Origin: an uncultured Bacillales bacterium
GTDB lineage: Bacteria > Bacillota_I > Bacilli_A > RF39 > UBA660
Length of the DNA stretch: 64,000 nucleotides
Assembly: GCA_946623125.1 (NCBI GenBank)
Contig: CAMOQR010000002.1
Location: 1,922-65,921, forward strand
Direction of reading: 5' to 3'
Shown: in pieces, positions 43,738 to 56,354 of the stretch
Layout of the letters: each line of letters opens with the position of its first letter
Numbering within the stretch: position 1 is the first letter of the stretch
Position numbers and translations under genes: made by a program
Notes under the pieces: generated by a model
Seen by the model: the letters and a program-made list of their open reading frames with translations, nothing else
Database searches by the model: none
What the model was told of the DNA's origin: nothing

Positions 43738-45244
43738 TTTTATCTTCCTTTCCCTCTATTTCAATATAGTTCTTATGGTAAATTATGGTTGCTGGTTCAT
43801 TTAACCAATTATCTCTATCCTCTGAAAAGTCACAATAATAGATTGGATATGGATAATATGTTAATGGTTTAAATGTTACATCTTTTATGGAATCATCTTC
43901 TAAAACCTTATATCTTTCTAACCACTCTTTTTGATAAGTTTTATGTTCATTCGTTCTAAGTAAAGCAAGTGTTTGATAAGATGTTAAATCCTCTCTTCCA
44001 TAATATAGAGCCAGTCCTAATACCATTAATACCGTTCCTAATAATAGAAAGGAATTATCTTTGATATATTTATTTCCTAATTCTGCTGCATTTTTTGTAG
44101 TAATTTTATTTGTCTTTAGAACATTTCTAAAGTATCCTACGATGTAGTATAAAGATATAACCATAAAGAATAAGTAACTAAAATATATAATATTTAGTAA
44201 TCTTCCTTCTCCTGTTGATGACATAGAATATAGTGTTGGAGTAAATTCTGCGGATAATATACAATACATAAATAAAACTACTATTAATGGATAAGAATAC
44301 TTTTTCTCTACCTTTTTATAAGTTGGATATAATAAATATCCTATTATTAATATTACAATTATATTAATTGCATTTGTCCATTCTGTCATAAATTTTAGAC
44401 AGAAATAGAATGATAAAATAATTGCTTTAACAGGATTCATTCCTGTTACATTTTTTTGTCTAAATTTATTTCCTGGTGCTGTTGCACTGATTCCTAGACC
44501 TAGAATAGAAATTGCTAGATATGGAAGTGCAGACTTATCTTTCTTTATGATTAGTAAATAGATATTTAAGAAGAATAGAATTATTACTTGTTGAAGGGCA
44601 ATAATGAAGTTTCCTCCTCCAATGATTCCTATTAATAAAAGAAGAATTATCGTATTTGTTTTTGTCTTTTCTTTTAACCAATATTGTTTTATTAATAAAG
44701 CAAATTCTAATAGTTCTAATGAGAAGAATATAATATAATAACTTGCTCCATTCCACCAATATAGACCTTGTGTTTTATCTACTAGTGTTTCCATACATAA
44801 TAAGAAAAATAATAATAATACAATCCAATAAGATTTTTTATCTAGTTTTAGTGCTTTTACTAGTAGTTGTTTTAATAAATAAGCAAGACTTAAAAAGAAG
44901 ATTCCTAATACTAAGAAAGTAGTTAAAAAGTAAGCGTTTTTCCCTAATATTCCAGGGTTTAGGCTGAATAAAATAATTGCAGAATAAGTTCCTTGCCATG
45001 TATGATAGAATTCATTTAACGTTTTGAATGATCCCGTAACTACCTTCCCTATTCCTTCTGTTTGTAAAACGTTCATGGTCTCTTTTCCATAACTAAAATC
45101 ATCTGCAGATGGAACGGTATAAAAAGATACCCATAATACAGGTACTAATAAAAGTATTGTTATTAGAATTGTAATTATTAGAACATTTTTTTTGGTTATT
45201 AGTTTGTTTAAGGCTTGATTCCATTTTTTCATTTTTTGTTGCAT
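43709..45244 (-). CDS. Polytopic membrane protein, possibly a GT-C-type glycosyltransferase
   Basis: 511 aa with ~12 TM helices and a short C-terminal soluble tail. It lies directly downstream of the UbiA/HAD pair. No motif recognised. Confidence 0.4.
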   Translation of the reverse strand: MQQKMKKWNQALNKLITKKNVLIITILITILLLVPVLWVSFYTVPSADDFSYGKETMNVLQTEGIGKVVTGSFKTLNEFYHTWQGTYSAIILFSLNPGILGKNAYFLTTFLVLGIFFLSLAYLLKQLLVKALKLDKKSYWIVLLLFFLLCMETLVDKTQGLYWWNGASYYIIFFSLELLEFALLIKQYWLKEKTKTNTIILLLLIGIIGGGNFIIALQQVIILFFLNIYLLIIKKDKSALPYLAISILGLGISATAPGNKFRQKNVTGMNPVKAIILSFYFCLKFMTEWTNAINIIVILIIGYLLYPTYKKVEKKYSYPLIVVLFMYCILSAEFTPTLYSMSSTGEGRLLNIIYFSYLFFMVISLYYIVGYFRNVLKTNKITTKNAAELGNKYIKDNSFLLLGTVLMVLGLALYYGREDLTSYQTLALLRTNEHKTYQKEWLERYKVLEDDSIKDVTFKPLTYYPYPIYYCDFSEDRDNWLNEPATIIYHKNYIEIEGKEDKNGKHKKKNN

Positions 45245-45258
45245 AATAAACCTTCTTT

Positions 45259-45837
45259 CTATTTTTTTATTTTATTCTTATCTAATTTTATAATTTCATT
45301 TTTTTTCACTAAATAAGCATTTTGTGCATAATGAAACATTGGGTAATCTGCAGAAATAGAGTCAGAATAAAAGTTTTTTATTTTTTGATTAGGATACTGT
45401 TCTTCATACCTCTTTATTTTTTCATAATCATGACAGTTTTTTGATATAAATTTTCCTGTTTTTTTGTCAACAATTGATGCAATTATTTTTACATTTAATT
45501 TTTTTTCTAATGGTTTTAATAAGAATTCTGGTGATGCAGAAATAATAACATCACTTGATTTTTGTTGCTTTTTATACCATTCTTTTATATTTATTATTTT
45601 TATATTCCAAAACTCATCAATTAAATCATCTACCGAGTTCATTCTTTTTAAAAAAGAAAAAATATGTTCTTTCATTGCTGTTTTATCAATTTTTTTTAAT
45701 TTATATAAAATAACTCCTTTTATTTGAGATGGAATATCTAATAATACTTTTTTATTTTTTTTGAGACAAAAAAAGTAAAAGTCAATGGATGAGTCTCCAT
45801 CATATATAGTCTCATCAAAGTCATAGGCATTTATCAT
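45259..45837 (-). CDS. HAD-superfamily phosphatase
   Basis: HAD motif I is present as YDFDETIYDGDS at the N-terminus. The start overlaps the UbiA-like stop as ATGA. Confidence 0.65.
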   Translation of the reverse strand: MINAYDFDETIYDGDSSIDFYFFCLKKNKKVLLDIPSQIKGVILYKLKKIDKTAMKEHIFSFLKRMNSVDDLIDEFWNIKIINIKEWYKKQQKSSDVIISASPEFLLKPLEKKLNVKIIASIVDKKTGKFISKNCHDYEKIKRYEEQYPNQKIKNFYSDSISADYPMFHYAQNAYLVKKNEIIKLDKNKIKK

Positions 45838-46703
45838 AGATAAAGAATTCCTCCCATTACAATTACATAAATAATTGCTGTTATTAATAATTTTTTATCT
45901 CCTAGTAATACTTCAATTGGATCCCCATGAGAGTTTCCTTCTATATCTAGACTATATAGTTGTAATATAATCATTAATAATGGAATTGTCCAGAATAAAT
46001 AATCATTTCCTATTCTTGATATTGTAGTTGGATCTACACACCATAATGTATAAGATACAACAGCAAGAGCAAGAGATACATACATGTTTTTATCTAGGAA
46101 ACTTTCGTTGTATCGTTCTAGTACTTTTCTGCTTTTTTCTCCATTTTTCATCATTTCATTCCGTCTTTTTCCAAATCCTAAATAGAATGATCCAAAGATA
46201 ATCATTAAGTATAAGTATTTTGATACTTCTACATTAACGATTACTCCTCCATACATTACGCGGAATACAAATCCTGATACTAATATCACTACATCAATAA
46301 TTGGTACATTTTTTAATCCATTACTATATAAAATATTTAAAAATAAATAACAGAATGGAATAATAAAAATAAAGATATTATTCTCTTTTATATATAATAG
46401 ACTCATTAGTGAAACTGCAAAAATACATAATAGACCAATTATTATTTTTGCTTCTGTTACTTTTACTTTTCCACTAGCAAGTGGTCTATTCTTTTTAATG
46501 GGATGTAGTTTATCTTTTTCAATATCTTTCATATCATTTATTACATAGACAATACTTGATATAAATGAGAATATGAAAAAACCAATGATTCCTTTTTCTA
46601 AATAAGTAGTATTTAACATATTTAGGCTAAAAAATATTGGTAAAAAAATTAATCCATTTTTTAACCAGTGTTTTGCACGTATTAGTTTTATATAATTTTT
46701 CAT
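45834..46703 (-). CDS. UbiA-family polyprenyl-phosphate phosphoribosyltransferase (decaprenyl-phosphate phosphoribosyltransferase-like)
   Basis: True start is the ATG at 46703 (MKNYIKLIRAKHWLKNGLIF). The track ORF extends to 47078 only because the frame stays open across the upstream gene. The Asp-rich motif NDMKDIEKDKLHPIKKNRPLASG matches my memory of the DPPR-synthase signature. Confidence 0.75.
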   Translation of the reverse strand: MKNYIKLIRAKHWLKNGLIFLPIFFSLNMLNTTYLEKGIIGFFIFSFISSIVYVINDMKDIEKDKLHPIKKNRPLASGKVKVTEAKIIIGLLCIFAVSLMSLLYIKENNIFIFIIPFCYLFLNILYSNGLKNVPIIDVVILVSGFVFRVMYGGVIVNVEVSKYLYLMIIFGSFYLGFGKRRNEMMKNGEKSRKVLERYNESFLDKNMYVSLALAVVSYTLWCVDPTTISRIGNDYLFWTIPLLMIILQLYSLDIEGNSHGDPIEVLLGDKKLLITAIIYVIVMGGILYL

Positions 46704-46717
46704 GTTATCCTTCTTTC

Positions 46718-47656
46718 TTATTGTTCTTTTTCTGTTTCTTTTATAATGTATACTGGGCGTTGTTTTACTTCTAAATATATTTTTGAAAGATATAATCCAA
46801 TGATTCCCAAGAAGAATAGTTGAATTCCACCGACAAAAATAATAATACATGCCATAGATGGCCATCCTGTTGCAGGATCTCCCCAAATAATTGTTTTTAA
46901 TATGATAAATATAATTGCTAGGAACGATACTAAGCAAAAGAACATTCCAACATATGCTGACATAATCAGTGGTGTTGTTGAGGATGATGCTACTCCTTCT
47001 ACTGCATATTTTATTAATTTTCTTAAATTGAATTTTGATGTTCCAGCACTTCTTTTTGGTGCTTGATAGGATATCCATTTTGTTTTAAATCCAATATAAC
47101 CATAAATACCTTTTGTATATCGATTATACTCCTTTAATGATAAAATTGCATCTACCATTTTTCTTTTCATTAATCTAAAATCTCTTGCACCTGGCATTTG
47201 CTTTGAATCAGATATTTTATCGATTAATTTATACCAAGTATTTGTTAGAGATCTTCTTATCAAATTATAATCTTTATGAGAATCGGTATATAATGCCACG
47301 CAGTCATAATCTTCTTTCTCTAAAATCTCATACATTTCGATTATTTTTTCAGGTGGATCTTGTAAGTCGACATCAAGTATTGCAGCATAATCACCCGTTA
47401 CAGCATTTAATCCTGCAAACATTCCTGCTTCTTTTCCATAATTTTTAGAAAAGGATATGTATCTTACTCTTTTATCTTCTTTAGAGTAATCTCTTATAAT
47501 TTTTAATGTATTATCTTTTGATCCATCATCTATAAAAATTAATTCAAATTCTTGATGAGGCATTTTTTCCATGACTTTTTTCATTTCTTCGTAAAAGATT
47601 GGAATGGCTTCTTCCTCATTATAGCATGGTATTATCAATGATATTTTCTTTGACAT
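46718..47656 (-). CDS. Polyprenyl-phosphate glycosyltransferase (GT2, GtrB/ArnC-like, two C-terminal TM helices)
   Basis: Motifs: ISLIIPCYNEEEAI, IDDGSKDNT, DVDLQDPP. Two C-terminal TM helices. Confidence 0.8.
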   Translation of the reverse strand: MSKKISLIIPCYNEEEAIPIFYEEMKKVMEKMPHQEFELIFIDDGSKDNTLKIIRDYSKEDKRVRYISFSKNYGKEAGMFAGLNAVTGDYAAILDVDLQDPPEKIIEMYEILEKEDYDCVALYTDSHKDYNLIRRSLTNTWYKLIDKISDSKQMPGARDFRLMKRKMVDAILSLKEYNRYTKGIYGYIGFKTKWISYQAPKRSAGTSKFNLRKLIKYAVEGVASSSTTPLIMSAYVGMFFCLVSFLAIIFIILKTIIWGDPATGWPSMACIIIFVGGIQLFFLGIIGLYLSKIYLEVKQRPVYIIKETEKEQ

Positions 47657-47667
47657 ACTGTATACTC

Positions 47668-48582
47668 CTATCTATTTCTATATACTAATTTTGGACTGAT
47701 TTTAACCAGTATTTTTTTAATTTTTCTGGATGCTGTATCTGTTAGTAAATAATCAAATACTTTTTCTTTTCTTAATAGGCTTTTATATTCTTTATAATCT
47801 TTCTTATTTAATTCTGTTATCTTTATGATTAATGAATTAGAAATAAAACTCATAAAATATTTTAAATCTAAATTTGTCTTTTTTATTTCATTTCTTAAAA
47901 ATAGATAATGATTATAAAAGTCCTCTACTTTCTTTTTTGTTTTCTCATAATTGTTTGTGCTCATAATACTATTTTCTCTTTGTCGGTAATTGTATCCAAT
48001 ATAGGATATTGATTTTACTTTTTTGGCTTTTATAATGACTAGTGGAATTAATCCAAAATCTTCATGAATTTTTCCTTTGGCAAATTCAAAATGATTTTCT
48101 TCGTAATAACTTTTTTTTATTGCATAACACCAAGCATTTTCTACAAAATGGTACTTACATATTTTTTCAAAGGCTTTCTCTCCATTACATGTATCAAATC
48201 CTTCTTCTTGCCATTTTTTAGGCTCTTGATTAGAATAAGTTTCTTGTATTTGAAAACGTATCAAATCTGGATTATCTTTTGTTGCGTTATTTAATTTTTC
48301 TAATAATTCTTCTTCTATTGTATCATCACTATCTAAAAATAAAATATACTCTCCTCTTGCTTTTTTTACTCCATTATTTCTAGCAACACTTAACCCTTGG
48401 TTTTCTTGATTAATAATTTTTACTTTGTAATCTTTTACAATTTCCATACTATTATCTTTTGTTCCGTCATTTACAACGATTACTTCATAATCTTTAAAGG
48501 TTTGTCTTGCAACACTTTCTAGACAATCTTTTATATATTCTTCTACATTATATACTGGGATTATGATACTGAATTTTGGCAT
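47668..48582 (-). CDS. GT2 glycosyltransferase (first gene of the glycopolymer locus)
   Basis: Motifs: FSIIIPVYNVEEYIKDCLESVARQT, VVNDGTKDNS, LDSDD. RBS GAGGTGAT. Confidence 0.8.
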   Translation of the reverse strand: MPKFSIIIPVYNVEEYIKDCLESVARQTFKDYEVIVVNDGTKDNSMEIVKDYKVKIINQENQGLSVARNNGVKKARGEYILFLDSDDTIEEELLEKLNNATKDNPDLIRFQIQETYSNQEPKKWQEEGFDTCNGEKAFEKICKYHFVENAWCYAIKKSYYEENHFEFAKGKIHEDFGLIPLVIIKAKKVKSISYIGYNYRQRENSIMSTNNYEKTKKKVEDFYNHYLFLRNEIKKTNLDLKYFMSFISNSLIIKITELNKKDYKEYKSLLRKEKVFDYLLTDTASRKIKKILVKISPKLVYRNR

Positions 48583-48674: not shown

Positions 48675-49346
48675 ATGAAAAAATATTTTGTTTTATTCAT
48701 AATCATGTTTTTAATATGTGGTTGTGGTCGTGATAAAAAAATTATAATGGAAGAAAAGAATGATCCTAATGAGACTGTTATTGATGATTCTGAAAAGAAT
48801 GATAATCATAGTCTTAATATTCCTATTCATTTTTATCAGAAAAAAAAGAATTCATTAAAAATGGTTCATTCTGTTTCAAAAAAAGATATTACTAATAATA
48901 GTTTAGGTAGATATTATATCTATTTTTCTGATCAGGAAGAGGTTTCTTTAAAAGATGATTTTTCTTATTCTTTTTATGATAAATGGTTAAAGTATCAAGA
49001 TAAATCTTCTTTTAAGATTGGATTTCGTATTCAGTATCATACAAGTGATTTAGGAGATATTTCATATGATATTTTTGATATAAGTAATTTCTTGAATCAA
49101 GATTATTTAGAGATCAGAATATTTGATGATTATCAAAATCGAAATCATAAAGAAGAGTTTTTTCTAAATCAAGATAATTTTAATGATAAAAGTTTATTTT
49201 CTTCTATTCAGTTATTAGGTGGAAATAAAGGAGGATTAATTGATTCTAAAATACTAATTCGTGTATTTACATATACTGATCGAGAGCATATTCAATATAA
49301 TAATGGAGATCAATTTACAATTTGTATTGATTCTTATGAATGTTAA
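48675..49346 (+). CDS. Hypothetical lipoprotein
   Basis: Signal peptide MKKYFVLFIIMFLICGCG with a lipobox-like ICGC; RBS GAGGTG. This is the only plus-strand gene between 12.9 and 60.6 kb. Confidence 0.6.
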   Translation: MKKYFVLFIIMFLICGCGRDKKIIMEEKNDPNETVIDDSEKNDNHSLNIPIHFYQKKKNSLKMVHSVSKKDITNNSLGRYYIYFSDQEEVSLKDDFSYSFYDKWLKYQDKSSFKIGFRIQYHTSDLGDISYDIFDISNFLNQDYLEIRIFDDYQNRNHKEEFFLNQDNFNDKSLFSSIQLLGGNKGGLIDSKILIRVFTYTDREHIQYNNGDQFTICIDSYEC

Positions 49347-49370
49347 AAGGGTTTCATTTGAAACCCTTTT
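49345..49370. terminator. Bidirectional rho-independent terminator
   Basis: 11-bp inverted repeat AAAAGGGTTTC / GAAACCCTTTT with a 4-nt loop and a T-run after it. It sits between convergent genes. Confidence 0.65.
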
Positions 49371-49371
49371 T

Positions 49372-52300
49372 TTATGTAGTAATTAATGAACCTTTTGTAA
49401 CATTCGATGAGGATGATTTTGTTGCGATTACATTATCAATTGCTGTTACGACACTTGTATAATTTACTGTTATGGATGCTCCTGTTTTAGTTGCAGCATT
49501 GTAAAACGTATTTGAGTAAGTTGTTGGATTTTTATATAAATTCATTGTGCAACTAATTCCTACTGCATTATAAAACATTGATTTAATGTTGGTTGCATAT
49601 ACTTTAAGTGTTCCAATACTAAATGGTGCAGCATTATATCCTGTGTAGTAAAACATCTCTGTCATATTAGTTACTTTTGCTGTGTTCCAATTTGATAAAT
49701 TTCCTATTGATAATGTGCTTGCATTATATCCTAAATAGGCAAACATATAAGACATGTTTGTTGCTTGCGTTACATTCCATCCTGATAAGTCTCCAATGTT
49801 TATTGAAGTACAGTTATATCCCAGTTTGTAAAACATGTACTGAAAATATTTTACTTTTGATACATTCCAGTTTGATAGATTTCCAAATGAAATAGAGGAA
49901 GAATTCAATCCAAAACAATAAAACATATATCTTAAATCTGTAGCGCTCGATAGATTCCATCCGGAGATATCTCCTAGATTGATTCCATTTGTTGTAACTC
50001 CTTGTGCAGCATTGTGAAACATATAAGATAAATTTGTTACATTTGTTAAAGTCCATCTGGAGATATCTCCTATGCTCCAAGTAGTCGCAGCATTTCCTGT
50101 ATTGCTAAACATGTAACTCAAATTATTAGCACTTGACATATCCCATTTTCCAAAATCCGTAAGATTAAAACTGGCTGTTGCATTTCCTGCTCCTTTGAAC
50201 ATTGATGCAAAACTAGTAACGTTTGATACATCCCATTTACTAATATCGCCTAAGCTCCAATTTAGAGCACTACTTGCTGCTCCTGTAAACATACATCCTA
50301 ATGAGGTTGCTCCTGACATATTCCAGCTGGATATGTCTCCAATAGACCACACTGTTGCTTTTTTTCCTGAATCTCCAAATAAATAGTAGAAATTTGTAAC
50401 GTGACTTACATCCCAATTTTGTAAATTTCCTAAATTAAAGGTTGTGTCGGCTCCTCCTGCACCATGAAATGCGTGAGCAATCTTTGTAATTGCTGATGTG
50501 TTCCAGCCTGATAAATCTCCTATATACCAAGTTGTTGCATTTCGTGCCGTATAATAAAACATATCTTCTATCGTTTCTAATTTTACTATATTCCATTTTC
50601 CAATATTTCCTATGTTAAATGTTAATGAATTACCTGCACAATTATAAAACATATAAGCCATATTTGTAACGTTTTCTGTGTTCCAATTTGACAAGTCTCC
50701 TATACTCCAATTGTTTTCTTGTGAATATTGTGCAGCATTTGAGAACATTCTTTCCATTGTTGTAACATTTCCAGTATCCCAGTTAGATAAATCTCCAATA
50801 TACCATTCAGTGTTATTACTTTTTGTACCTGTTTCAGAAAACATAGAGTTCATTTTTGTAACTTTTGCAGTCGTCCAACTGCCAATATTTCCTATGTTAA
50901 ATGAATTTGCTGATGAACCAGCATTGTTAAACATATGTTCCATACTTGTTACAGCAGTTGTGTTCCATCCGGATAAATCTCCTATATACCAAGTTGTTGC
51001 ACTATGTCCTGCATTAGCAAACATATTTGCAAAGCTAGTAGCTTTTTCAACATTCCAATTTCCAATATTTCCTATATTAAATGTTGAAGCACTACTCCCT
51101 GTATTTAAGAATAGGTATGTCATGTTTGTTACTTTGGATGTATTCCATCCGGATAAATCTCCTACATTCCATGTATTTGCATTAAAACCACTTTCTCGAA
51201 ACATGTTACTCATCGATGTTGCGGCCAGTGTTTGCCAATTATTAAGATTTCCAATATTCCATTCTTCTTCGGTCGTGAATCCTGCACCATAAAACATACT
51301 ATCAAAACTTTTTACTTTTTTTACATTCCAGTTATCTAATGAGCCAATTGACCAGGTCGTTGCTTTATATCCAAAATTTTTAAACATTTGATACATTGAT
51401 TCAACATTTCCTACATTCCAACTTGACAAATCTCCCAAATACACTGTATCTGCTTGTTCTCCTGCGAAACTAAACATATCATCCATGCTTTGTATATTTG
51501 AAGTATCCCATTTCCCAATATCTCCAATATTAAAGTTATCTGCATTTTGGCCAGCATATGAGAACATTTCTTTCGTATCTTTCACGGCAGATGTTGTCCA
51601 ATTTGATAAATCTCCTATTTCCCATGTCATTGCTTCATTTCCAAAGTAGGAAAACGTTGCATTCATTGTTGTGGCACTTTGGGGCCTCCATCCTGATAAG
51701 TCTAGGGTTACTGTAGTTGAATTAATTCCCGCTTCACTAAAAGTTTCTGTCATGTCTGTTACATTTGTAACATTCCAATTGCTTATATTTCCTATCGACC
51801 AGTTTTCTGCTTCTGCACCAAACCCTTCAAAGGTATCTTTTAAATTAGTAAGAGCCTGGGGCCGCCAATTTCCTAAATTTAAAGATATTGATGTGGCGTT
51901 ATATGCTGCTTGTTGAAACATACTTTCAAAAGTTGTTACTTTTGAAACATCCCAATTTGAAATATTTAAACTCCAACTAGAAGCAGGCTTCCCTGTTACT
52001 GCAAACATAAAATCCATTGTTGTTACATTTGAGGTATTCCAATTGCTTAGGTCTAGACTCCAAGTAGTAGCCGAAAAGCCTGCACTTTGAAACATTTTTG
52101 TCATATTTTCTACATTAGAAACATTCCAATTCGATAAATCTCCAATATAAAAAGTTGATTGGGCATGTTGAATGGCATAAAACATCAAATCCATTTTTGT
52201 TGCGGATTGTGTATTCCAATTAGTTAAGTCAAGATTTACAAAGCTTGAGTTTAAACCTGCTTGGGTAAAAGTATTAGTAAATATTTTTACACTTGAAACA

Positions 52301-53346
52301 TCCCATTTACCAATCTCTCCTACATTCCATTCTGTGGTTTGTTTTGATCCAGCATTAAAGAATAATCCATTCATTGTTGTAACTTTAGAAGTATTCCAAT
52401 TGGAAATATCTCCAATATTAAACCCATTATTTCCGGCATTATTGAAAACTGCTTGCATTTGAGTAACATTTCCCGTGTTCCAATTTGATAAATCTCCTAT
52501 ACTCCACGTTTTTGCTTTGCTTCCAGTACTTTGAAATAATCCATTTATATTGACTACATTCCTAATATCCCAATCATCTAATCCTATAATGTTCACCACA
52601 CCTGCATAATCCATTCCCACTCTTCCAAAGGTTCGATACAATGTTGTTACTTTTGATGTATCCCATCCTGTTACGTTAATGGTTACTGAGTTTGAATCAC
52701 TATATGTACCACTTCCCATTTTTCCTGCTGCAAAAGCAAAGGTATCTGTTAAGTTATTTAGACTATTCATGTTCCAGTGTGATAATTCAAAATTTACATT
52801 TGTTGAGTTGTATCCTGAACCATAAAAGGCTTGCGATAAGTCAGTCAGTTTTGGGGCATATAGATTTCCTGATACATTAAATGAAGATGCACTAAAACCT
52901 GCGTATTGAAACATGTTATTTGCTCTTTCAACATTTGTAAAATCCATATTATTTGTATTTATTCCTATTAAATATTGTTTAGCATAGAACATATAACTAG
53001 TTGATACAATTGGATAATTATTAATAGAACTACATGTTGCTGTTGAAACAGTAACATTAGAAGTGTCTAAAGCATAATACACTCCCCAACCAAATTCACT
53101 AATATCTTGCCATCCATCTTCTGTTTTTTCTTGCATGAAATGATATTCGTAAGTTCCATCATTATAGGATGCTCCAACAGATAAGGCACCATCATATGTA
53201 CATGGATTTGCACCCGTATACTTGTAATAATCCGTATTTCCAGACACAAAAAGATTATTGGATAAGGCAGAATATCCAACAGACTCAAATAACAAAATTG
53301 CAAAAATTGCAATTGAAAATAAAATGTTTATTTTCTTTTTACTCAC
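49372..53346 (-). CDS. Giant DUF285/BspA-type leucine-rich-repeat surface protein with a SipW-cognate-like signal peptide and no C-terminal anchor
   Basis: GTG start at 53346 with an AGGTGA RBS that contains the stop of the signal peptidase gene. I count about 35 units of the W(N/D)xSxVTxMxxMF type, with a ~28-30-aa period. The N-terminus is ...LLFESVGYSALSNNL. The C-terminus has no LPXTG motif or TM helix. Confidence 0.8.
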   Translation of the reverse strand: MSKKKINILFSIAIFAILLFESVGYSALSNNLFVSGNTDYYKYTGANPCTYDGALSVGASYNDGTYEYHFMQEKTEDGWQDISEFGWGVYYALDTSNVTVSTATCSSINNYPIVSTSYMFYAKQYLIGINTNNMDFTNVERANNMFQYAGFSASSFNVSGNLYAPKLTDLSQAFYGSGYNSTNVNFELSHWNMNSLNNLTDTFAFAAGKMGSGTYSDSNSVTINVTGWDTSKVTTLYRTFGRVGMDYAGVVNIIGLDDWDIRNVVNINGLFQSTGSKAKTWSIGDLSNWNTGNVTQMQAVFNNAGNNGFNIGDISNWNTSKVTTMNGLFFNAGSKQTTEWNVGEIGKWDVSSVKIFTNTFTQAGLNSSFVNLDLTNWNTQSATKMDLMFYAIQHAQSTFYIGDLSNWNVSNVENMTKMFQSAGFSATTWSLDLSNWNTSNVTTMDFMFAVTGKPASSWSLNISNWDVSKVTTFESMFQQAAYNATSISLNLGNWRPQALTNLKDTFEGFGAEAENWSIGNISNWNVTNVTDMTETFSEAGINSTTVTLDLSGWRPQSATTMNATFSYFGNEAMTWEIGDLSNWTTSAVKDTKEMFSYAGQNADNFNIGDIGKWDTSNIQSMDDMFSFAGEQADTVYLGDLSSWNVGNVESMYQMFKNFGYKATTWSIGSLDNWNVKKVKSFDSMFYGAGFTTEEEWNIGNLNNWQTLAATSMSNMFRESGFNANTWNVGDLSGWNTSKVTNMTYLFLNTGSSASTFNIGNIGNWNVEKATSFANMFANAGHSATTWYIGDLSGWNTTAVTSMEHMFNNAGSSANSFNIGNIGSWTTAKVTKMNSMFSETGTKSNNTEWYIGDLSNWDTGNVTTMERMFSNAAQYSQENNWSIGDLSNWNTENVTNMAYMFYNCAGNSLTFNIGNIGKWNIVKLETIEDMFYYTARNATTWYIGDLSGWNTSAITKIAHAFHGAGGADTTFNLGNLQNWDVSHVTNFYYLFGDSGKKATVWSIGDISSWNMSGATSLGCMFTGAASSALNWSLGDISKWDVSNVTSFASMFKGAGNATASFNLTDFGKWDMSSANNLSYMFSNTGNAATTWSIGDISRWTLTNVTNLSYMFHNAAQGVTTNGINLGDISGWNLSSATDLRYMFYCFGLNSSSISFGNLSNWNVSKVKYFQYMFYKLGYNCTSINIGDLSGWNVTQATNMSYMFAYLGYNASTLSIGNLSNWNTAKVTNMTEMFYYTGYNAAPFSIGTLKVYATNIKSMFYNAVGISCTMNLYKNPTTYSNTFYNAATKTGASITVNYTSVVTAIDNVIATKSSSSNVTKGSLITT
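49626..52899 (-). repeat. Array of ~35 degenerate 84-90-bp coding repeats (DUF285 LRR units)
   Basis: The periodic motif GD(I/L)SxWN(T/V)SxVTxMxxMFxxA recurs throughout the translated ORF. Confidence 0.85.
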
Positions 53347-53352
53347 AAATTA

Positions 53353-54483
53353 TCACCTGTTTTTGATTAATTCACTTAATGAAACGGTTGGCCAACCTAA
53401 CCATTTTATATTCATTACTACTTTTCCAACAACATCGTTGTTGTTTACAACCCACGCATCTTCACTTTCATTCGCATCTCCTTTAGTTCGAAAGTGATTT
53501 TTATCTTGTTCCACTTCTATTACTCTATGAACTACAACTTTTCCTAGTTCTTGAAAAGCAATAATATCTCCTTTTTTTATTTCTTTTTTCTTTTTATCTA
53601 TAATTACAATATCCCCTTTATTGATTGTTCCTTGCATAGAACCTGATCCAATGGCAAGAGAATAAAATCTAAATTTATTACTTGTAAGATATAACATGAT
53701 ACAAACATTTACGGCTATAAATATATTGCATGCGGTAAACAATATCTTATTATTTTTTAATTTTCTACTATTCTTTATTTTTTCTGTTTTTACATTTGTT
53801 ACATTGGCAATAAATAATCCTGTTACGATTGGAAGTAATACTTGTGCAATGATTTCAAAGAAATCTCCTAAGTTTGGGAATACTGGTAAAAGATATTTTG
53901 GAATGATTATTAATAATTGATATATTAGACTACATTTCTTATCTGATTTATATGTAATATATGACAATAGTATATGTTTTAAGATACATGGAAGAATCAA
54001 TGATAATATTGCATTAAATATATCTAGTCTTGATGTATACATCCTTAAATTGATAAGAGATGGCATTTCTAACATAATTCCAATTAATGGAGTTATATAG
54101 ATAATTGATTTATGATAGAAATTGTTTTTAATTAAGTTTTCTCTTAATACTTCAATTGATCCTATTACGATTAATGCAGTTGTGATATTAGTTACAATTC
54201 CAAAGAATGATCTACTATATGATGTATAATAAAATCCAAAGAAAAATCCTAAGAAGTTTGTTATAAAGTAATAAAACAAAATACAAATAATAATAATTAG
54301 TGTTATATCTGTATGAAATCTTTCTTTTCTTTTTTCTGGTTTAAATATAACTGAAGGAATAATTGCCATTAATAGAAGGATTCCTAAATACACATATCTA
54401 TTGATGGTAATATAAAAGAAACAAAAAAAAGAAAGAAGTATGATTATACATTCAGTCAACTTTATTTTTGTTGAATATTTCAT
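53353..54483 (-). CDS. ER/archaeal-type (S26B, SipW-like) signal peptidase I fused to a ~270-aa N-terminal polytopic membrane domain
   Basis: ATG at 54483 with an AAGGAG RBS. The C-terminal ~100 aa carry SGSMQGT (catalytic Ser), VVHRVIEV (His) and TKGDANESED (GDAN box), with no Ser-Lys dyad signature. About 9 predicted TM helices precede this domain. No in-frame ATG would give a stand-alone one-TM enzyme. Confidence 0.7.
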   Translation of the reverse strand: MKYSTKIKLTECIIILLSFFCFFYITINRYVYLGILLLMAIIPSVIFKPEKRKERFHTDITLIIIICILFYYFITNFLGFFFGFYYTSYSRSFFGIVTNITTALIVIGSIEVLRENLIKNNFYHKSIIYITPLIGIMLEMPSLINLRMYTSRLDIFNAILSLILPCILKHILLSYITYKSDKKCSLIYQLLIIIPKYLLPVFPNLGDFFEIIAQVLLPIVTGLFIANVTNVKTEKIKNSRKLKNNKILFTACNIFIAVNVCIMLYLTSNKFRFYSLAIGSGSMQGTINKGDIVIIDKKKKEIKKGDIIAFQELGKVVVHRVIEVEQDKNHFRTKGDANESEDAWVVNNNDVVGKVVMNIKWLGWPTVSLSELIKNR

Positions 54484-54498
54484 ACAATCCACTCCTTT

Positions 54499-55077
54499 TT
54501 ATTTTTGTGAAAAATTTAATTGATAGGAAAAACCCTGCGCGGTAAAATTTCCTACTCCCTCTCCTAACTCATAATATACATTTAAAAATACATTCTTTTT
54601 AGTTGCAGTTGTTCCATTTTTTGCTTCTAATATATCTCCTATTTGTACCAATTGTTCCCCATTTGGATCATAACTTACTGTATATTTAACATTTCCACAT
54701 GTCATAGTGCTTCCATTTGTTGTACAACTCATTCCTGTTGGAGGGGTCATTGTAATGCCGGAAATTTGTCCCGCTATATCTCCATTATTTACTAGCATTA
54801 AATTATATAAGCATTTACTGTCTGTTTTATAAAATTTTGCTGAAACATTGCTAACTGTAGTTTTGTTTATTACTCCTACACTACAATCTGCATTAACGTT
54901 TCCTGTGCTTTTGGTATTAGGATCAAATCCAATATCCCAAGTTAGAGCATTTTGTGTTGTTTTATTGACTGTCATTGTAACATTGGAACTTAAAAGAGCA
55001 AATGCAATGGACATTGTTATTAAAGTAAGAGAAAAAATTATGACTCCACCATATATTAATTTCTTATTGCGAATCAT
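54499..55077 (-). CDS. TasA/CalY (camelysin, M73)-like secreted protein, paralog 4 (most divergent)
   Basis: ATG at 55077 preceded by GGAGGA; an alternative ATG at 55092 overlaps the upstream stop as TAATG. The signal peptide ends SIAFALLSS. It also has QNALTWDIGF, four conserved Cys and the C-terminal FSYQLNFSQK. Confidence 0.55.
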   Translation of the reverse strand: MIRNKKLIYGGVIIFSLTLITMSIAFALLSSNVTMTVNKTTQNALTWDIGFDPNTKSTGNVNADCSVGVINKTTVSNVSAKFYKTDSKCLYNLMLVNNGDIAGQISGITMTPPTGMSCTTNGSTMTCGNVKYTVSYDPNGEQLVQIGDILEAKNGTTATKKNVFLNVYYELGEGVGNFTAQGFSYQLNFSQK

Positions 55078-55091
55078 ATTTTTCTCCTCCA

Positions 55092-56354
55092 TTACTCATC
55101 TATGTCTGCTTCTTTTAAAGTATATTTATAAGTACGATCAATATCTTGAACATAGAATTCTGATTTTACATTATTAACTTTAAAATATAATATTGGTTTA
55201 TTTACCGTATCCCGTACATCTAATAATTCTAAGAATGTAGTAACGGTATAGATATCATTACTATTTTTCAACATATTATTATCTTTTAAAGTTACAATTA
55301 CTTTATCGTATGTTGTTAATATTTGTTTTAGTTTTTTATCATATTTTGAATCATTTTTAAATGATTTTGATAATAATTCTGTTAATTTATATAAATTATA
55401 AATACTAAATCCAAGTGATATTGTTAATACAATGAATGATAATATTACAACTATTCCATAAGATTTTGTAATATGAGTATCCATATTATTAGATGTTTCA
55501 CTCTTTGTGATACCATATGTTAATTCTTTTAGTGGAATTGTTAGAGATGATACTTCTCTTTCTCCTTTTTCATCTTTTATAAATAATGAAACTTTTAGAT
55601 TAGATTTTCCAATAATTGCGTATTCATTCATATAATCAATTATATAATCGTTATAATCTTGAAATGGAATATCAATTGATTCTACAAAGGATAAAACATT
55701 TCCATTTACTGATACTTTTTTATTGTCTAGTATTTTTTCTTCTTTTTTAAATAATTCTTTTCCACTTTCGGCATCTAATTTAACATCCATTTTTGTTGTA
55801 ATATAATATTCAAAGTTTGCTTTTGTTTTTTCTTGGAATACTTTATTATAATTAAAATCAACACGAATATTTTTTGTTAGGGAGGTTACATATTGTAACC
55901 CTTCCTCTAAACAAGAAGTATTATAAAATTTATTTTCATTTAAGCATACTTGATAATTAATGCTTGTATTTTCATTTGCTTGAATTACTTTTGTTCTATT
56001 TTTTTGAAAAATGATTAATGATATTACAAATATCATGATTGTCATACAACATAGAAGTATTTTCTTTGTTAATCTTGGTAAAAATCCATAGTAATCATTC
56101 TTTTTCTTTGGTTTTGTTAATTTTATTTTGTTTTGTTTTTCCGGTTCTTGCTCTTCTAATAGTTCTGGTTGATTATTATCTATTGATTCTTGTAGATTCT
56201 CTTCTTTTTGTGTGTTTTCTAATTCTTCTATGTTTGTATTTGATTGAAAAGTGTCATTTTTAATATCTAATTCTTCATTTTCGGAAATATTTTCAGATTC
56301 ATCTAATAATTCTTCAATTTCTTCTGGTTCATTTGTTTTATTATTTATTTCCAT
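55092..56354 (-). CDS. Two-TM membrane protein with an acidic cytoplasmic N-terminus and a ~200-aa outside domain (I recall a similar DUF5305-type protein next to SipW genes; unverified)
   Basis: 420 aa. The first ~90 aa are very acidic (E/D/N-rich). TM1 is ILLCCMTIMIFVISLIIF and TM2 is YGIVVILSFIVLTISLGFSIY, followed by a ~95-aa C-terminal cytoplasmic domain. Confidence 0.5.
   Translation of the reverse strand: MEINNKTNEPEEIEELLDESENISENEELDIKNDTFQSNTNIEELENTQKEENLQESIDNNQPELLEEQEPEKQNKIKLTKPKKKNDYYGFLPRLTKKILLCCMTIMIFVISLIIFQKNRTKVIQANENTSINYQVCLNENKFYNTSCLEEGLQYVTSLTKNIRVDFNYNKVFQEKTKANFEYYITTKMDVKLDAESGKELFKKEEKILDNKKVSVNGNVLSFVESIDIPFQDYNDYIIDYMNEYAIIGKSNLKVSLFIKDEKGEREVSSLTIPLKELTYGITKSETSNNMDTHITKSYGIVVILSFIVLTISLGFSIYNLYKLTELLSKSFKNDSKYDKKLKQILTTYDKVIVTLKDNNMLKNSNDIYTVTTFLELLDVRDTVNKPILYFKVNNVKSEFYVQDIDRTYKYTLKEADIDE

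What the first reader, a model, noticed from the sequence alone, without database searches (positions are those of the whole stretch)
53212..53346. The giant DUF285/LRR protein carries the same signal-peptide end and mature N-terminus as the four small subunits
Aligning the N-termini by eye:
- P1: ..GIAIAYAALSQNLNVTV
- P2: ..GVGIAYAALSTTLTMTF
- P3: ..GVSIAYAAMSSTFNLTF
- P4: ..TMSIAFALLSSNVTMTV
- Giant protein: ..ESVGYSALSNNLFVSG

The conserved core (A/G)-(Y/F)-(A/S)-A-(L/M)-S-x-x-(L/F/V)-x-(V/L/M)-(T/S) spans the predicted cleavage site and the first ~10 mature residues. In TasA fibres, the N-terminal strand of one subunit is known to be donated into the next subunit. The 1324-aa protein shares this strand but otherwise consists of LRR units. 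It has no LPXTG, TM or cell-wall-binding module at its C-terminus (it ends ...SSSNVTKGSLITT). It could therefore be held at the surface by inserting its N-terminal strand into the fibre, acting as a fibre-tip or fibre-decorating adhesin. That would be a modular adhesin-on-TasA-fibre arrangement, analogous in logic to tip adhesins of chaperone-usher or sortase pili.
Basis: inference. Interest (0 to 1): 0.8.

Follow-up and report, generated by a model that had tools for sequence, protein, structure and literature searches.

The report
Subunit-like N-terminal tag on giant adhesin
In an uncultured sheep-rumen bacterium, a giant repeat protein begins with the same short N-terminal sequence as four small proteins that probably build a surface fibre, which suggests the giant is plugged onto that fibre as an adhesin, an arrangement recently described in related systems.

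Summary
The pattern [YF][AS][AL][LM]S occurs five times in the window. Each time it sits at residue 25-34, after a hydrophobic leader, in four ~195-aa paralogues and in the 1324-aa DUF285/PARCEL protein.

All five genes lie in one minus-strand operon: P1-P2-P3, a DUF5305-type protein, P4, a ~9-TM SipW/archaeal-type signal peptidase I, then the giant.

In related loci the large protein after the peptidase keeps G[YF]SALxxxLx[IV]SGDV in 8 of 19 cases, on at least three unrelated bodies that share only their first ~40 residues. One of these bodies also occurs fused behind a complete small-subunit domain.

The motif is the most conserved segment of the small-subunit family, yet it is an unstructured N-terminal extension in the AlphaFold monomer.

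The locus matches the published Tafi/AbpX/TasA-type layout of dedicated peptidase, DUF5305, small donor-strand subunits and a variable tip protein.

- **Not shown:** the small subunits are not demonstrably TasA. They have no Pfam hit and no significant fold match. Cleavage and strand insertion were not tested.
- **Verdict:** It is a new variant of a known kind, of moderate interest.

The parts
58218..58245 (-). Promoter-like site (TTGAAA-16-TAAAAT with TG) just upstream of P1. It follows a terminator-like hairpin at 58261-58282 that ends the upstream gene.
   Evidence: consensus scan only
57612..58202 (-). Small subunit P1 (196 aa), first gene of the operon. Leader plus AYAALSQNLNVTV (residues 26-38, nt 58089-58127), then a beta-sandwich domain with 4 conserved Cys.
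57014..57598 (-). Small subunit P2 (194 aa). Motif AYAALSTTLTMTF at nt 57488-57526.
56392..56982 (-). Small subunit P3 (196 aa). Motif AYAAMSSTFNLTF at nt 56863-56901.
55092..56354 (-). DUF5305-type accessory membrane protein (420 aa): acidic N-terminus, TM 99-117, an outside domain of about 180 aa, TM 300-318, and a cytoplasmic C-terminal domain.
   Evidence: TM segments. BLAST gives 219 bits to the L009 homologue, which hits PF17231 at 51 bits, as does the L078 homologue at 46 bits. The window protein itself gives no direct Pfam hit.
54499..55092 (-). Divergent small subunit P4 (197 aa, or 192 aa from Met6 as called in L085). Motif AFALLSSNVTMTV at nt 54967-55005. It forms a separate orthologue group placed between the DUF5305 gene and the peptidase in related loci.
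53353..54492 (-). Dedicated signal peptidase I, SipW/archaeal (S26B) type, fused behind a polytopic domain (about 9 predicted TM segments). Catalytic-type motifs GSGSM (282), VHRV (321) and GDAN (338).
   Evidence: (TIGR02228 84 bits, above its cutoff of 51.85; SipW model 59 bits, below its cutoff of 190)
49372..53346 (-). Giant cargo protein (1324 aa): leader, shared N-terminal strand, a cap of about 65 aa, then about 35 DUF285/PARCEL LRR-like repeats. No C-terminal anchor. GTG start lies 6 nt after an AGGTGA Shine-Dalgarno sequence and 6 nt after the peptidase stop.
53212..53346 (-). The flagged segment: residues 1-45 of the giant (n-region KKK, h-region INILFSIAIFAILLF, c-region ESVG, then the shared motif).
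53239..53277 (-). Shared motif in the giant, GYSALSNNLFVSG (residues 24-36). Predicted cleavage is G|Y or GYS|A. The proposed donor strand is ALSNNLFVS.
   Evidence: Cleavage and strand role are inferred.
49345..49370 (.). 11-bp palindromic hairpin with flanking A/T runs, lying between the giant's stop codon and the convergent lipoprotein gene. Likely bidirectional terminator and the end of the operon.

Best explanation
The giant DUF285/PARCEL protein is the last gene of a seven-gene operon: P1-P2-P3, DUF5305 protein, P4, polytopic SipW-type signal peptidase, giant. The operon encodes a sortase-independent, TasA/Tafi/AbpX-like surface-fibre system of an uncultured sheep-rumen Bacilli bacterium.

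Shown:
- The giant and the small subunits carry one family of Sec leaders ending in [AG]-[YF]-[AS]-A-L-x-x-x-L-x-[IV]-[ST].
- This leader travels with the peptidase and DUF5305 operon.
- It sits on interchangeable cargo bodies.

Inferred:
- The dedicated peptidase, helped by the DUF5305 protein, cleaves at [AG]|[YF] or [YF]-[AS]|A.
- Cleavage frees an amphipathic strand of about 10 residues (ALSxxLxV/I-T/S).
- Small subunits polymerise by inserting this strand into the beta-sandwich of the neighbouring subunit (donor-strand complementation).
- The giant has the strand but no acceptor domain. It can therefore only fill the free groove at one fibre end, acting as initiator and distal tip adhesin, one copy per fibre, as proposed for TapA, TafC and F-BclA.
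- If the fibre grows at the membrane, each cleavage would hand the new N-terminus to the next, still membrane-tethered subunit. That would place the first-loaded protein, the giant, at the tip.
For: - Motif restricted to these five genes.
- Operon structure, tight gene spacing and a Shine-Dalgarno sequence before the giant.
- Peptidase is archaeal/SipW-type SPase I with about 9 TM segments.
- DUF5305 homology of the 420-aa protein.
- In 8 of 19 related loci the protein after the peptidase starts with G[YF]SALxxxLx[IV]SGDV.
- Those cargo proteins are DUF285 (5 loci), an L005/L029-type body or an L078-type body. Unrelated bodies share only residues 1 to about 40: 46% identity for window vs L005, E=2.7e-7.
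- None of the 9 cargo proteins has a C-terminal TM segment or LPxTG.
- Fusion link: P0190, L063 and L065 consist of a complete small-subunit domain (E=2e-37 to P1) followed by the L005/L029 cargo body (E=1e-55).
- Some small subunits carry the cargo-type GYSALS variant, for example in L073.
- In 243 family members the 13-residue motif is the most conserved stretch: top-residue frequency 0.73, against 0.56 for the folded domain.
- The same stretch is coil with the lowest pLDDT (64-80) in two high-confidence monomer models with mean pLDDT 90.7 and 93.6.
- The highest-probability fold matches (prob 0.93-0.98), though statistically weak and not the lowest-E-value hits (those are family-3 carbohydrate-binding modules), are donor-strand pilin domains of chaperone-usher pili.
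- Published systems have the same parts list and a strand-donating tip or initiator protein: PMC10151520, PMC11821415, PMC12337348, bioRxiv 10.64898/2026.01.04.697558, PMC11844507.
Against: - There is no direct evidence that the small subunits polymerise or that any strand is exchanged. No multimer prediction was possible.
- The small subunits have no significant sequence or fold match to TasA, AbpA, Tafi or CanA.
- After about 10 shared residues the two classes diverge. Cargo has SGDV and small subunits have TxxKVTQN, so part of the conservation is class-specific and unexplained.
- Eleven of 19 loci have no cargo after the peptidase.
- Cargo-type leaders also occur away from any peptidase operon, as expected for mere peptidase substrates.
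- The cleavage site is unknown.
- No protein that would hold the fibre on the cell was identified.
Confidence: 0.5

Rival explanations
1. Peptidase-substrate tag only. The shared motif is the recognition and cleavage signal of the dedicated polytopic signal peptidase, comparable to the SipW-cognate class of signal peptides. The giant is simply exported and released, or held on the wall or a glycan by its repeats, without physical attachment to a polymer of the small subunits.
For: - The motif spans both candidate cleavage sites.
- The whole leader, including the n- and h-regions, is conserved among cargo proteins, as expected if the peptidase's membrane domain reads it.
- Cargo genes with this leader occur unlinked to the operon.
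- Many operons lack cargo.
- SipW is known to process both TasA and TapA (PMC10151520).
Against: - Conservation continues 8-10 residues past either cleavage site with beta-strand periodicity (L at +7, I/V at +9).
- The fusion of a cargo body to a whole subunit domain argues for physical association.
- The motif is more conserved than the folded domain.
- No alternative anchor exists in any cargo protein.
Confidence: 0.3
2. Uncleaved signal-anchor. The leader is not removed from the giant, which stays in the membrane as a type II protein. The motif sits at the membrane-water interface and may mediate lateral association with the peptidase or the DUF5305 complex.
For: - The AlphaFold model of full-length P1 continues the leader helix through residue 30, that is, through AYAAL.
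- No experimental cleavage data exist.
- The giant has no other anchor.
Against: - The c-region has the canonical small residues at -3 and -1 and a helix breaker (G or P) at -5/-6 for either candidate site in nearly all of 149 small subunits and all cargo proteins.
- A dedicated catalytically intact SPase I (GSGSM, HR, GDAN) is encoded 6 nt upstream.
- In Haloarcula, deleting the equivalent peptidase blocks subunit processing and fibre formation (PMC11821415).
Confidence: 0.1
3. The small proteins are not fibre subunits. They could be a surface coat, carbohydrate-binding or spore-associated proteins. The shared leader would then reflect only common descent of signal peptides within a recently duplicated gene cluster.
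For: - The top Foldseek E-values are to family-3 carbohydrate-binding modules, and one PDB sequence match (E=0.36) is a CBM3.
- DUF11/Ig-like sub-threshold hits occur, and the same central domain is repeated in giant multi-domain proteins.
- In L002 the operon lies next to sporulation genes.
Against: - The giant's body is unrelated to the small subunits, so the shared leader is not a duplication remnant.
- The leader is found on three unrelated bodies.
- The combination of peptidase, DUF5305 and multiple 150-200-aa paralogues is the published signature of donor-strand fibres.
- None of the CBM matches is significant (all E>1e-3, TM<0.25).
Confidence: 0.08

Closest known systems
TapA-SipW-TasA of Bacillus subtilis (PMC10151520, PMC9674648)
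   Same: A dedicated archaeal-type signal peptidase sits in the operon. The fibre subunit polymerises through its N-terminal strand. A second, non-fibre protein (TapA) shares N-terminal residues with the subunit, donates that strand, and can only sit at a filament end as initiator.
   Different: - The small subunits here do not reach the Peptidase_M73 threshold and show no TasA fold match.
- The peptidase has about 9 TM segments rather than 1-2.
- A DUF5305 protein is present.
- There are four or more subunit paralogues.
- The strand-bearing accessory protein is a 1324-aa DUF285 repeat protein rather than a small Ig-domain protein, and it is interchangeable between loci.
Haloarchaeal Tat-fimbriae (Tafi: TafA/E subunits, TafC tip, TafD peptidase, TafG DUF5305) and the related DUF1102 clusters of Thermococcales and Archaeoglobales (PMC11821415, PMC12337348)
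   Same: The parts list matches: a multi-TM signal peptidase I, a DUF5305 protein, two to several subunits of 150-200 aa, and a variable tip protein predicted to give the first donor strand. The structural genes vary while the peptidase and DUF5305 are conserved.
   Different: - The host here is bacterial (Bacilli), with Sec rather than Tat leaders.
- No DUF1102, TafA or TafE similarity was detected.
- The peptidase domain order differs: the catalytic domain is C-terminal here and N-terminal in TafD.
- No TafF-like membrane anchor and no TafB regulator were seen.
- The tip candidate is a DUF285 solenoid with no subunit-like domain.
AbpX-type loci of archaea and Bacillota/Chloroflexota (bioRxiv 10.64898/2026.01.04.697558)
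   Same: The dedicated SPase I has about ten TM helices. A DUF5305 accessory protein has two TM helices, an outside beta-sandwich and a cytoplasmic domain. Minor subunits and structurally variable predicted tip proteins co-assemble by donor strand in AF3 models.
   Different: [quoted passage not shown] P1 has pI 9.0 and begins (Y-A-)A-L-S-x-x-L.
- No SLH or LPXTG anchor or sortase gene was seen in the loci examined.
- No sequence match to any PDB chain.
F-ENA endospore appendages with the F-BclA tip fibrillum (PMC11844507)
   Same: A tip protein carries an N-terminal peptide that mimics the subunit's N-terminal docking peptide, and so caps the distal end of a Firmicute fibre.
   Different: F-ENA subunits are DUF4183 proteins assembled without signal peptides on spores. 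Those authors found no alternative cargo bodies behind the docking peptide, whereas here at least three body types carry it.
Tip adhesins of chaperone-usher pili (FimH, PapG) and sortase pili
   Same: The logic is the same: a large adhesin sits at the end of a polymer of small Ig-like subunits. The highest-probability (though statistically weak) fold matches of P1 are chaperone-usher pilin domains.
   Different: The polarity is reversed, because FimH and PapG accept a strand through a pilin domain whereas the giant would donate one. There is no chaperone, usher, sortase or LPXTG here.

Membership tests
TasA/camelysin family (Pfam PF12389 Peptidase_M73) | Sequence match to the family profile above its curated threshold | tested here: not met
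   P1-P4 give no hit at E<=0.1. Among 88 family members, 17 give sub-threshold hits, best E=0.0046; for example P0206 scores 14.9 bits against a cutoff of 22.5, aligning residues 50-117 with profile positions 15-81. hhalign of the family against B. subtilis TasA gives probability 8.9% and aligns only the KPGD...NxG segment.
TasA/camelysin family (Pfam PF12389 Peptidase_M73) | TasA-like jelly-roll fold | tested here: inconclusive
   Foldseek against the PDB with two high-confidence models gave no hit at E<=1e-3. No TasA, AbpA, thread, CanA or Tafi chain appears in the top 50. The highest probabilities are for chaperone-usher pilin domains and the lowest E-values for CBM3.
SipW-cognate class signal peptide (NCBIfam TIGR04088) | Match to the signal-peptide model | tested here: not met
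   No hit for P1-P4 or the giant at E<=0.1. No hit for ten cargo N-termini at E<=10.
Tafi/AbpX-type donor-strand fibre loci (TasA superfamily in the sense of the 2025-2026 papers) | Dedicated archaeal/SipW-type signal peptidase I with extra TM helices in the locus | tested here: met
   TIGR02228 at 84.1 bits, above its cutoff of 51.85. About 9 hydrophobic segments. Ser/His/Asp-type motifs present. Conserved in 26 related loci.
Tafi/AbpX-type donor-strand fibre loci (TasA superfamily in the sense of the 2025-2026 papers) | DUF5305 (PF17231) accessory protein with two TM helices flanking an outside domain | tested here: met
   The window protein has TM segments at 99-117 and 300-318. It has no direct Pfam hit. 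It is homologous (219 bits) to the L009 protein, which scores 51.4 bits on PF17231; the L078 orthologue scores 46.2 bits. Membership is therefore by transitive homology.
Tafi/AbpX-type donor-strand fibre loci (TasA superfamily in the sense of the 2025-2026 papers) | Several paralogous Sec-exported subunits of 150-200 aa with a conserved N-terminal extension outside the fold | tested here: met
   Four paralogues in the window and 2-8 in related loci. The extension is coil in the models and is the most conserved segment.
Tafi/AbpX-type donor-strand fibre loci (TasA superfamily in the sense of the 2025-2026 papers) | Subunits polymerise by donor-strand complementation | not testable with these tools
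   No multimer structure prediction was available. This needs AF-Multimer/AF3, cryo-EM or biochemistry.
Tafi/AbpX-type donor-strand fibre loci (TasA superfamily in the sense of the 2025-2026 papers) | Detectable homology of the subunits to TafA/TafE, DUF1102 or AbpX, including the AbpX hallmarks (acidic pI, aromatic residue at position 2, acidic residue at position 4) | tested here: not met
   No DUF1102 hit or other relevant Pfam hit. No PDB sequence match. P1 has pI 9.0. The mature start would be (YA)ALSxxL.
DUF285 / PARCEL repeat surface proteins (PF03382, TIGR02167) | Tandem DUF285/PARCEL repeats above threshold | tested here: met
   PF03382 at 608 bits in 15 stretches. TIGR02167 at 186 bits, above its cutoff of 30. 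About 35 repeats with a 30-residue period.
Sortase-assembled pili and LPXTG surface proteins | C-terminal LPXTG sorting signal with a TM segment and a charged tail | tested here: not met
   No LPx[TSA]G and no C-terminal hydrophobic segment in the giant or in 8 other cargo proteins.
Type IV pilin-like proteins (class III signal peptide) | G|F-x-x-x-E prepilin motif before the hydrophobic helix | tested here: not met
   Read directly from the sequence: the leaders are K/R-rich n-region, then h-region, then a small-x-small c-region, with no Gly-Phe...Glu5. A true prepilin-type leader is seen on a different DUF285 protein in L046.

The most novel reading that the evidence does not exclude
A large, unnamed family of Bacilli surface-fibre subunits (4045 representative clusters) is assembled by a peptidase-coupled donor-strand mechanism. 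It uses a portable N-terminal 'strand tag' of about 12 residues to load interchangeable, anchor-less giant adhesins onto fibre ends. These adhesins include DUF285/PARCEL solenoids and at least two other body types, some encoded far from the operon. This would be a plug-in display system, and it would give DUF285 proteins their first defined structural context.
Probability: 0.35. Interest if true: 0.75.

Novelty: new variant of a known kind. Interest (0 to 1): 0.6.

Why it matters
DUF285/PARCEL proteins are abundant, mostly uncharacterised surface proteins of Mollicutes, Listeria, lactic acid bacteria and gut or rumen Firmicutes. How the anchor-less ones stay on the cell is unknown.

If the N-terminal tag docks them onto a TasA-like fibre, three things follow:
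- It explains how they are retained.
- It defines a new bacterial branch of the donor-strand fibre systems described in archaea only in 2025-2026.
- It shows that one short strand can serve as a modular address for very different adhesins. That would be useful for predicting adhesin repertoires in uncultured rumen and gut bacteria, and possibly as a display tag.

The hypothesis can be tested directly with AF3 and a handful of constructs.

Tried and rejected
- The search for homologous proteins with the giant's first 120 residues found nothing. With a profile of ten cargo leaders it found only 11 contig-end fragments. These still showed a widespread VGFGALNxxLNIAGDVEY subclass.
- The exact giant and peptidase sequences are not in the protein collection. 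P1 is, which led to the same strain in a sheep-rumen assembly.
- A PDB sequence search with the family profile gave only a CBM3 at E=0.36.
- Foldseek with the full-length and the mature model gave nothing at E<=1e-3.
- hhalign against TasA was not significant.
- TIGR04088 was not detected.

Readings rejected:
- Lipoprotein: no lipobox Cys in the leader.
- Type IV pilin: no G|FxxxE, and the linked peptidase is SPase I.
- Sortase substrate: no LPXTG.
- Chance similarity: rejected.
- Leader shared through gene duplication: the bodies are unrelated.

I looked for a correlation between Y or F at the aromatic position of cargo and of small subunits in the same locus and found none that was consistent.
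Full report
**1. Observation**

The segment 53212-53346 on the minus strand encodes residues 1-45 of a 1324-aa ORF (49372-53346, GTG start). The pattern [YF][AS][AL][LM]S occurs five times in all six-frame ORFs of 60 aa or more in the 64-kb window. Each occurrence is at residue 25-34, directly after a hydrophobic leader, in five co-oriented neighbouring genes: P1 57612-58202, P2 57014-57598, P3 56392-56982, P4 54499-55092 and the giant. Composition predicts 0.57 matches, and 500 residue shuffles gave a mean of 0.57 and a maximum of 5. Position and context make chance negligible.

The giant is a DUF285 (608 bits, 15 stretches) and PARCEL-repeat protein with about 35 repeats of about 30 residues. 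Its only hydrophobic segment is the leader. It has no LPxTG and no other Pfam domain.

**2. Context in the window**

The genes form one minus-strand operon.
- A terminator-like hairpin (58282-58261) ends the upstream gene, which encodes an O-antigen-ligase/glycosyltransferase-like protein.
- A promoter-like site (58245-58218) precedes P1.
- Gene spacings run from a 1-nt overlap to 37 nt.
- The giant's GTG lies 6 nt after the peptidase stop and 6 nt after an AGGTGA Shine-Dalgarno sequence.
- An 11-bp palindromic hairpin (49345-49370) follows the giant.

Between P3 and P4 lies a 420-aa protein with two TM helices, at 99-117 and 300-318. Between P4 and the giant lies a 379-aa protein. Its C-terminal 130 residues are an archaeal/SipW-type signal peptidase I: TIGR02228 at 84 bits against a cutoff of 51.85, and the SipW model at 59 bits. 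It carries GSGSM, VHRV and GDAN motifs. Its N-terminal ~250 residues hold about eight further hydrophobic segments.

**3. The small subunits**

P1-P4 have no Pfam or NCBIfam family.
- They belong to an unnamed family. A word-indexed search found 333 hits, all unnamed or labelled 'hypothetical protein [Bacilli bacterium]'. An exhaustive profile search found 4045 representative clusters at E<=1e-3.
- AlphaFold models are confident: pLDDT 90.7 for the full-length protein and 93.6 for the mature form. They show a beta-sandwich starting at about Trp48. The 22 residues after the leader (Y27-D49) are coil with the lowest pLDDT, 64-80.
- In 243 family members that same stretch is the most conserved part of the protein. 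The mean top-residue frequency is 0.73 for residues 26-38, 0.56 for the folded domain and 0.40 for the h-region.
- The consensus is G-[ILV]-[SGT]-[IV]-[AG]-[YF]-A-A-L-S-T-T-L-x-I-T-x-x-K-V-T-Q-N. Hydrophobic residues alternate at L(+7), I/V(+9) and F/V(+11).

Sequence and fold comparisons do not place the family in TasA.
- The PDB profile search found nothing apart from a CBM3 at E=0.36.
- hhalign against TasA gave 8.9% probability, aligning only a KPGD...NxG segment.
- Seventeen of 88 members give sub-threshold Peptidase_M73 hits, best E=0.0046. Similar numbers hit DUF11 and HYDIN-type Ig models.
- Foldseek gave no hit at E<=1e-3. The highest-probability matches were chaperone-usher pilin domains: the PapG pilin domain at probability 0.98 and FimA at 0.93. 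No TasA, AbpA or Tafi chain appeared in the top 50.

**4. Related loci**

Seventy-one metagenome loci and several long contigs were fetched.
- The core is conserved: 2-8 small subunits, one homologue of the 420-aa protein, and one ~380-aa peptidase fusion.
- Homologues of the 420-aa protein reach the Pfam threshold for DUF5305. L009 scores 51.4 bits and L078 scores 46.2 bits, and hits are also on record for L079-84. The window protein itself does not reach it.
- In 8 of the 19 distinct loci where sequence beyond the peptidase is visible, the next large protein starts with a leader ending in G-[YF]-[SAG]-[AV]-[LY]-x-x-x-[LMV]-x-[IV]-[SRTA]-G-[DNS]-[VT]. This protein lies 2.3 kb downstream in L044. 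The loci are the window, L002 (three in tandem), L005, L020 (two), L029, L031, L044 and L078.
- Among 212 ORFs of 260 aa or more in the non-redundant loci, a relaxed version of the motif pattern picked out 18. Eleven are these cargo proteins, all downstream of a peptidase. Three are subunit fusions and five are obvious false positives.

The cargo bodies differ.
- DUF285 occurs in the window, L002, L020, L031 and L044.
- A second body type is shared by L005 and L029, and a third occurs in L078. Neither has a Pfam hit.
- Between unrelated bodies the only detectable similarity is the first ~40 residues. Examples are window vs L005 at 46% over residues 1-41 (E=2.7e-7), and L020 vs L029 at 59% over 37 residues.
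- None of nine cargo proteins has a C-terminal TM segment or LPxTG.

**5. A fusion link**

P0190 (589 aa), like the 588-aa proteins of L063 and L065, has two parts. Residues 4-194 are a complete small-subunit domain, 41% identical to P1 (E=2e-37). Residues 215-587 are the body of the L005/L029 cargo (E=1e-55 and 4e-54).

The same cargo body is therefore found either covalently behind a whole subunit or behind only the leader and strand. This is the classical fusion argument that the two proteins associate physically. Some small subunits also carry the cargo-type variant, for example L073 with GIGYSALSTNLYVS, so the two N-terminal classes form one continuum.

**6. Points that weaken the fibre-tip reading**

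- Eleven of 19 loci have no such cargo after the peptidase. They have instead a GH25 muramidase, a membrane-anchored cyclophilin, housekeeping genes or another small subunit.
- The VGFGALNxxLNIAGDVEY subclass of cargo leader also occurs with no peptidase operon nearby (L089 and the P0130 contig).
- After about 10 shared residues the classes diverge, with SGDV in cargo and TxxKVTQN in small subunits.
- The cleavage position is ambiguous. Both [SGT]-[IV]-[AG]|[YF] and [AG]-[YF]-[AS]|A obey the -3/-1 rule. The second resembles TasA's T-W-A|A-F.
- No multimer model could be computed.

**7. Comparison with what is known**

DUF5305 is mentioned in only four papers of the library, and all concern donor-strand fibres.
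- *Tafi.* In Haloarcula, a multi-TM signal peptidase (TafD, needed for subunit processing and for fimbriae), a DUF5305 protein (TafG), the subunits TafA/TafE and a tip protein TafC form one cluster. TafC is modelled as giving the first donor strand. DUF1102 clusters of Thermococcales and Archaeoglobales have the same layout (PMC11821415; PMC12337348).
- *AbpX.* A 2026 preprint describes AbpX loci in archaea and in Bacillota and Chloroflexota. They have an SPase I with ten TM helices, a DUF5305 protein with two TM helices, minor subunits and structurally variable tip proteins that AF3 docks by donor strand.
- *TapA-TasA.* In B. subtilis, TapA shares N-terminal residues with TasA, donates that strand and can sit only at a filament end (PMC10151520).
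- *F-ENA.* In F-ENA spore fibres the tip protein F-BclA mimics the subunit's N-terminal hook (PMC11844507).

Four things are new here:
- a bacterial subunit family not recognisable as TasA, AbpX or Tafi;
- a giant DUF285 solenoid as the strand-bearing partner, with no subunit-like domain;
- the same tag on several unrelated bodies, including unlinked genes;
- fused and unfused versions of one cargo.

A DUF285 protein has been linked to adhesion in Lactococcus (PMC5071367).

**8. Best explanation (confidence 0.5)**

Shown: the shared leader and strand family, its linkage to the peptidase and DUF5305 operon, the modular cargo, the absence of other anchors, and the fusion link.

Inferred: cleavage at the motif, polymerisation of P1-P4 by strand donation, and docking of the giant's ALSNNLFVS strand into the free groove at one fibre end. 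Having no acceptor domain, the giant would act as initiator or tip, one per fibre. It could not decorate the shaft.

Rivals:
- peptidase-substrate tag only (0.3);
- uncleaved signal anchor (0.1);
- small proteins that are not fibre subunits (0.08).

**9. Source**

The same strain is present in sheep-rumen assemblies; the giant differs at 2 residues (L085). Relatives are labelled 'Bacilli bacterium' MAGs. The window is 27% G+C.

Noticed in passing
L046:12040-13854 (+), 270 bp downstream of that locus's peptidase: A 604-aa DUF285 protein (115 bits) starts with MKKGFVFVETMVVIAFLG..., a type IV prepilin-like leader (G|F...E5), instead of the GYSAL-type leader. DUF285 bodies in this lineage may therefore be mounted on two different filament systems by swapping the N-terminal module.
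   Followed up: partly
P0190; L063:6808-8574; L065:1770-3536; also P0162 and P0171: Proteins of 470-590 aa consist of a complete small-subunit domain followed by an extra C-terminal body. In P0190, L063 and L065 this is the same body as the L005/L029 cargo, ending ...VRPVISL..G.G...PY. The L063 and L065 genes lie away from any peptidase operon.
   Followed up: yes
P0174 (4825 aa, 36 stretches), P0239 (5970 aa), P0241, P0243, P0278, P0279: The central part of the small-subunit domain (profile positions ~55-160, with the KPGD...NxG and CGN motifs) is repeated 12-36 times in giant proteins. This points to a relationship with DUF11-like Ig repeats.
   Followed up: no
L089:8001-8226 and the contig carrying P0130: Cargo-type leaders of the VGFGALNxxLNIAGDVEY subclass occur with no peptidase or small-subunit genes in the 4.6-8 kb upstream. 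Proteins carrying the tag are therefore not confined to the operon.
   Followed up: partly
L014:4807-5131, L032:2747-3439, L044:3713-4429: In several loci a membrane-anchored cyclophilin-type peptidyl-prolyl isomerase directly follows the peptidase (PF00160, 139 bits in L044). It may be a folding helper for the exported subunits.
   Followed up: partly
L079-L084 (e.g. L079:14832-16043) and L078:16160-17365: In the closest relatives of the window's operon, a GH25 muramidase with an N-terminal membrane anchor follows the peptidase, or follows the cargo in L078. It might open the wall for the fibre, but it is absent from the window.
   Followed up: no
window 43709-48582 and 58281-60590 (minus strand): The operon is embedded in envelope-glycan genes. 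Upstream is an O-antigen-ligase-like protein fused to a GT1 domain (Pfam hit on record for the identical L085 gene). Immediately downstream is a GT2 glycosyltransferase (Pfam on record for the identical L085 gene) and a second GT2 whose start is visible there. Further downstream, a UbiA-type prenyltransferase-like ORF, a HAD-like ORF and a large polytopic membrane protein were read by eye only and not scanned. The giant has 50 N-x-S/T sequons and the small subunits have 6-8. Any link to glycosylation is untested.
   Followed up: no
window 48675-49346 (+): A convergent 223-aa ORF has a lipoprotein-type leader (MKKYFVLFIIMFLICGCG) and no Pfam family. It shares the bidirectional hairpin at 49345-49370 with the giant.
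   Followed up: partly
L002:7183-8854: In the MAG GCA_017525015.1 the homologous operon lies directly after the sporulation genes gpr (Peptidase_A25) and spoIIP. A spore-associated role for the fibres was not examined.
   Followed up: no
window 54499-55092 and 53353-54492: The longest-ORF starts are probably a few codons too long. Gene calls for the same strain (L085) start P4 at Met6 (192 aa) and the peptidase at Met4 (376 aa).
   Followed up: yes
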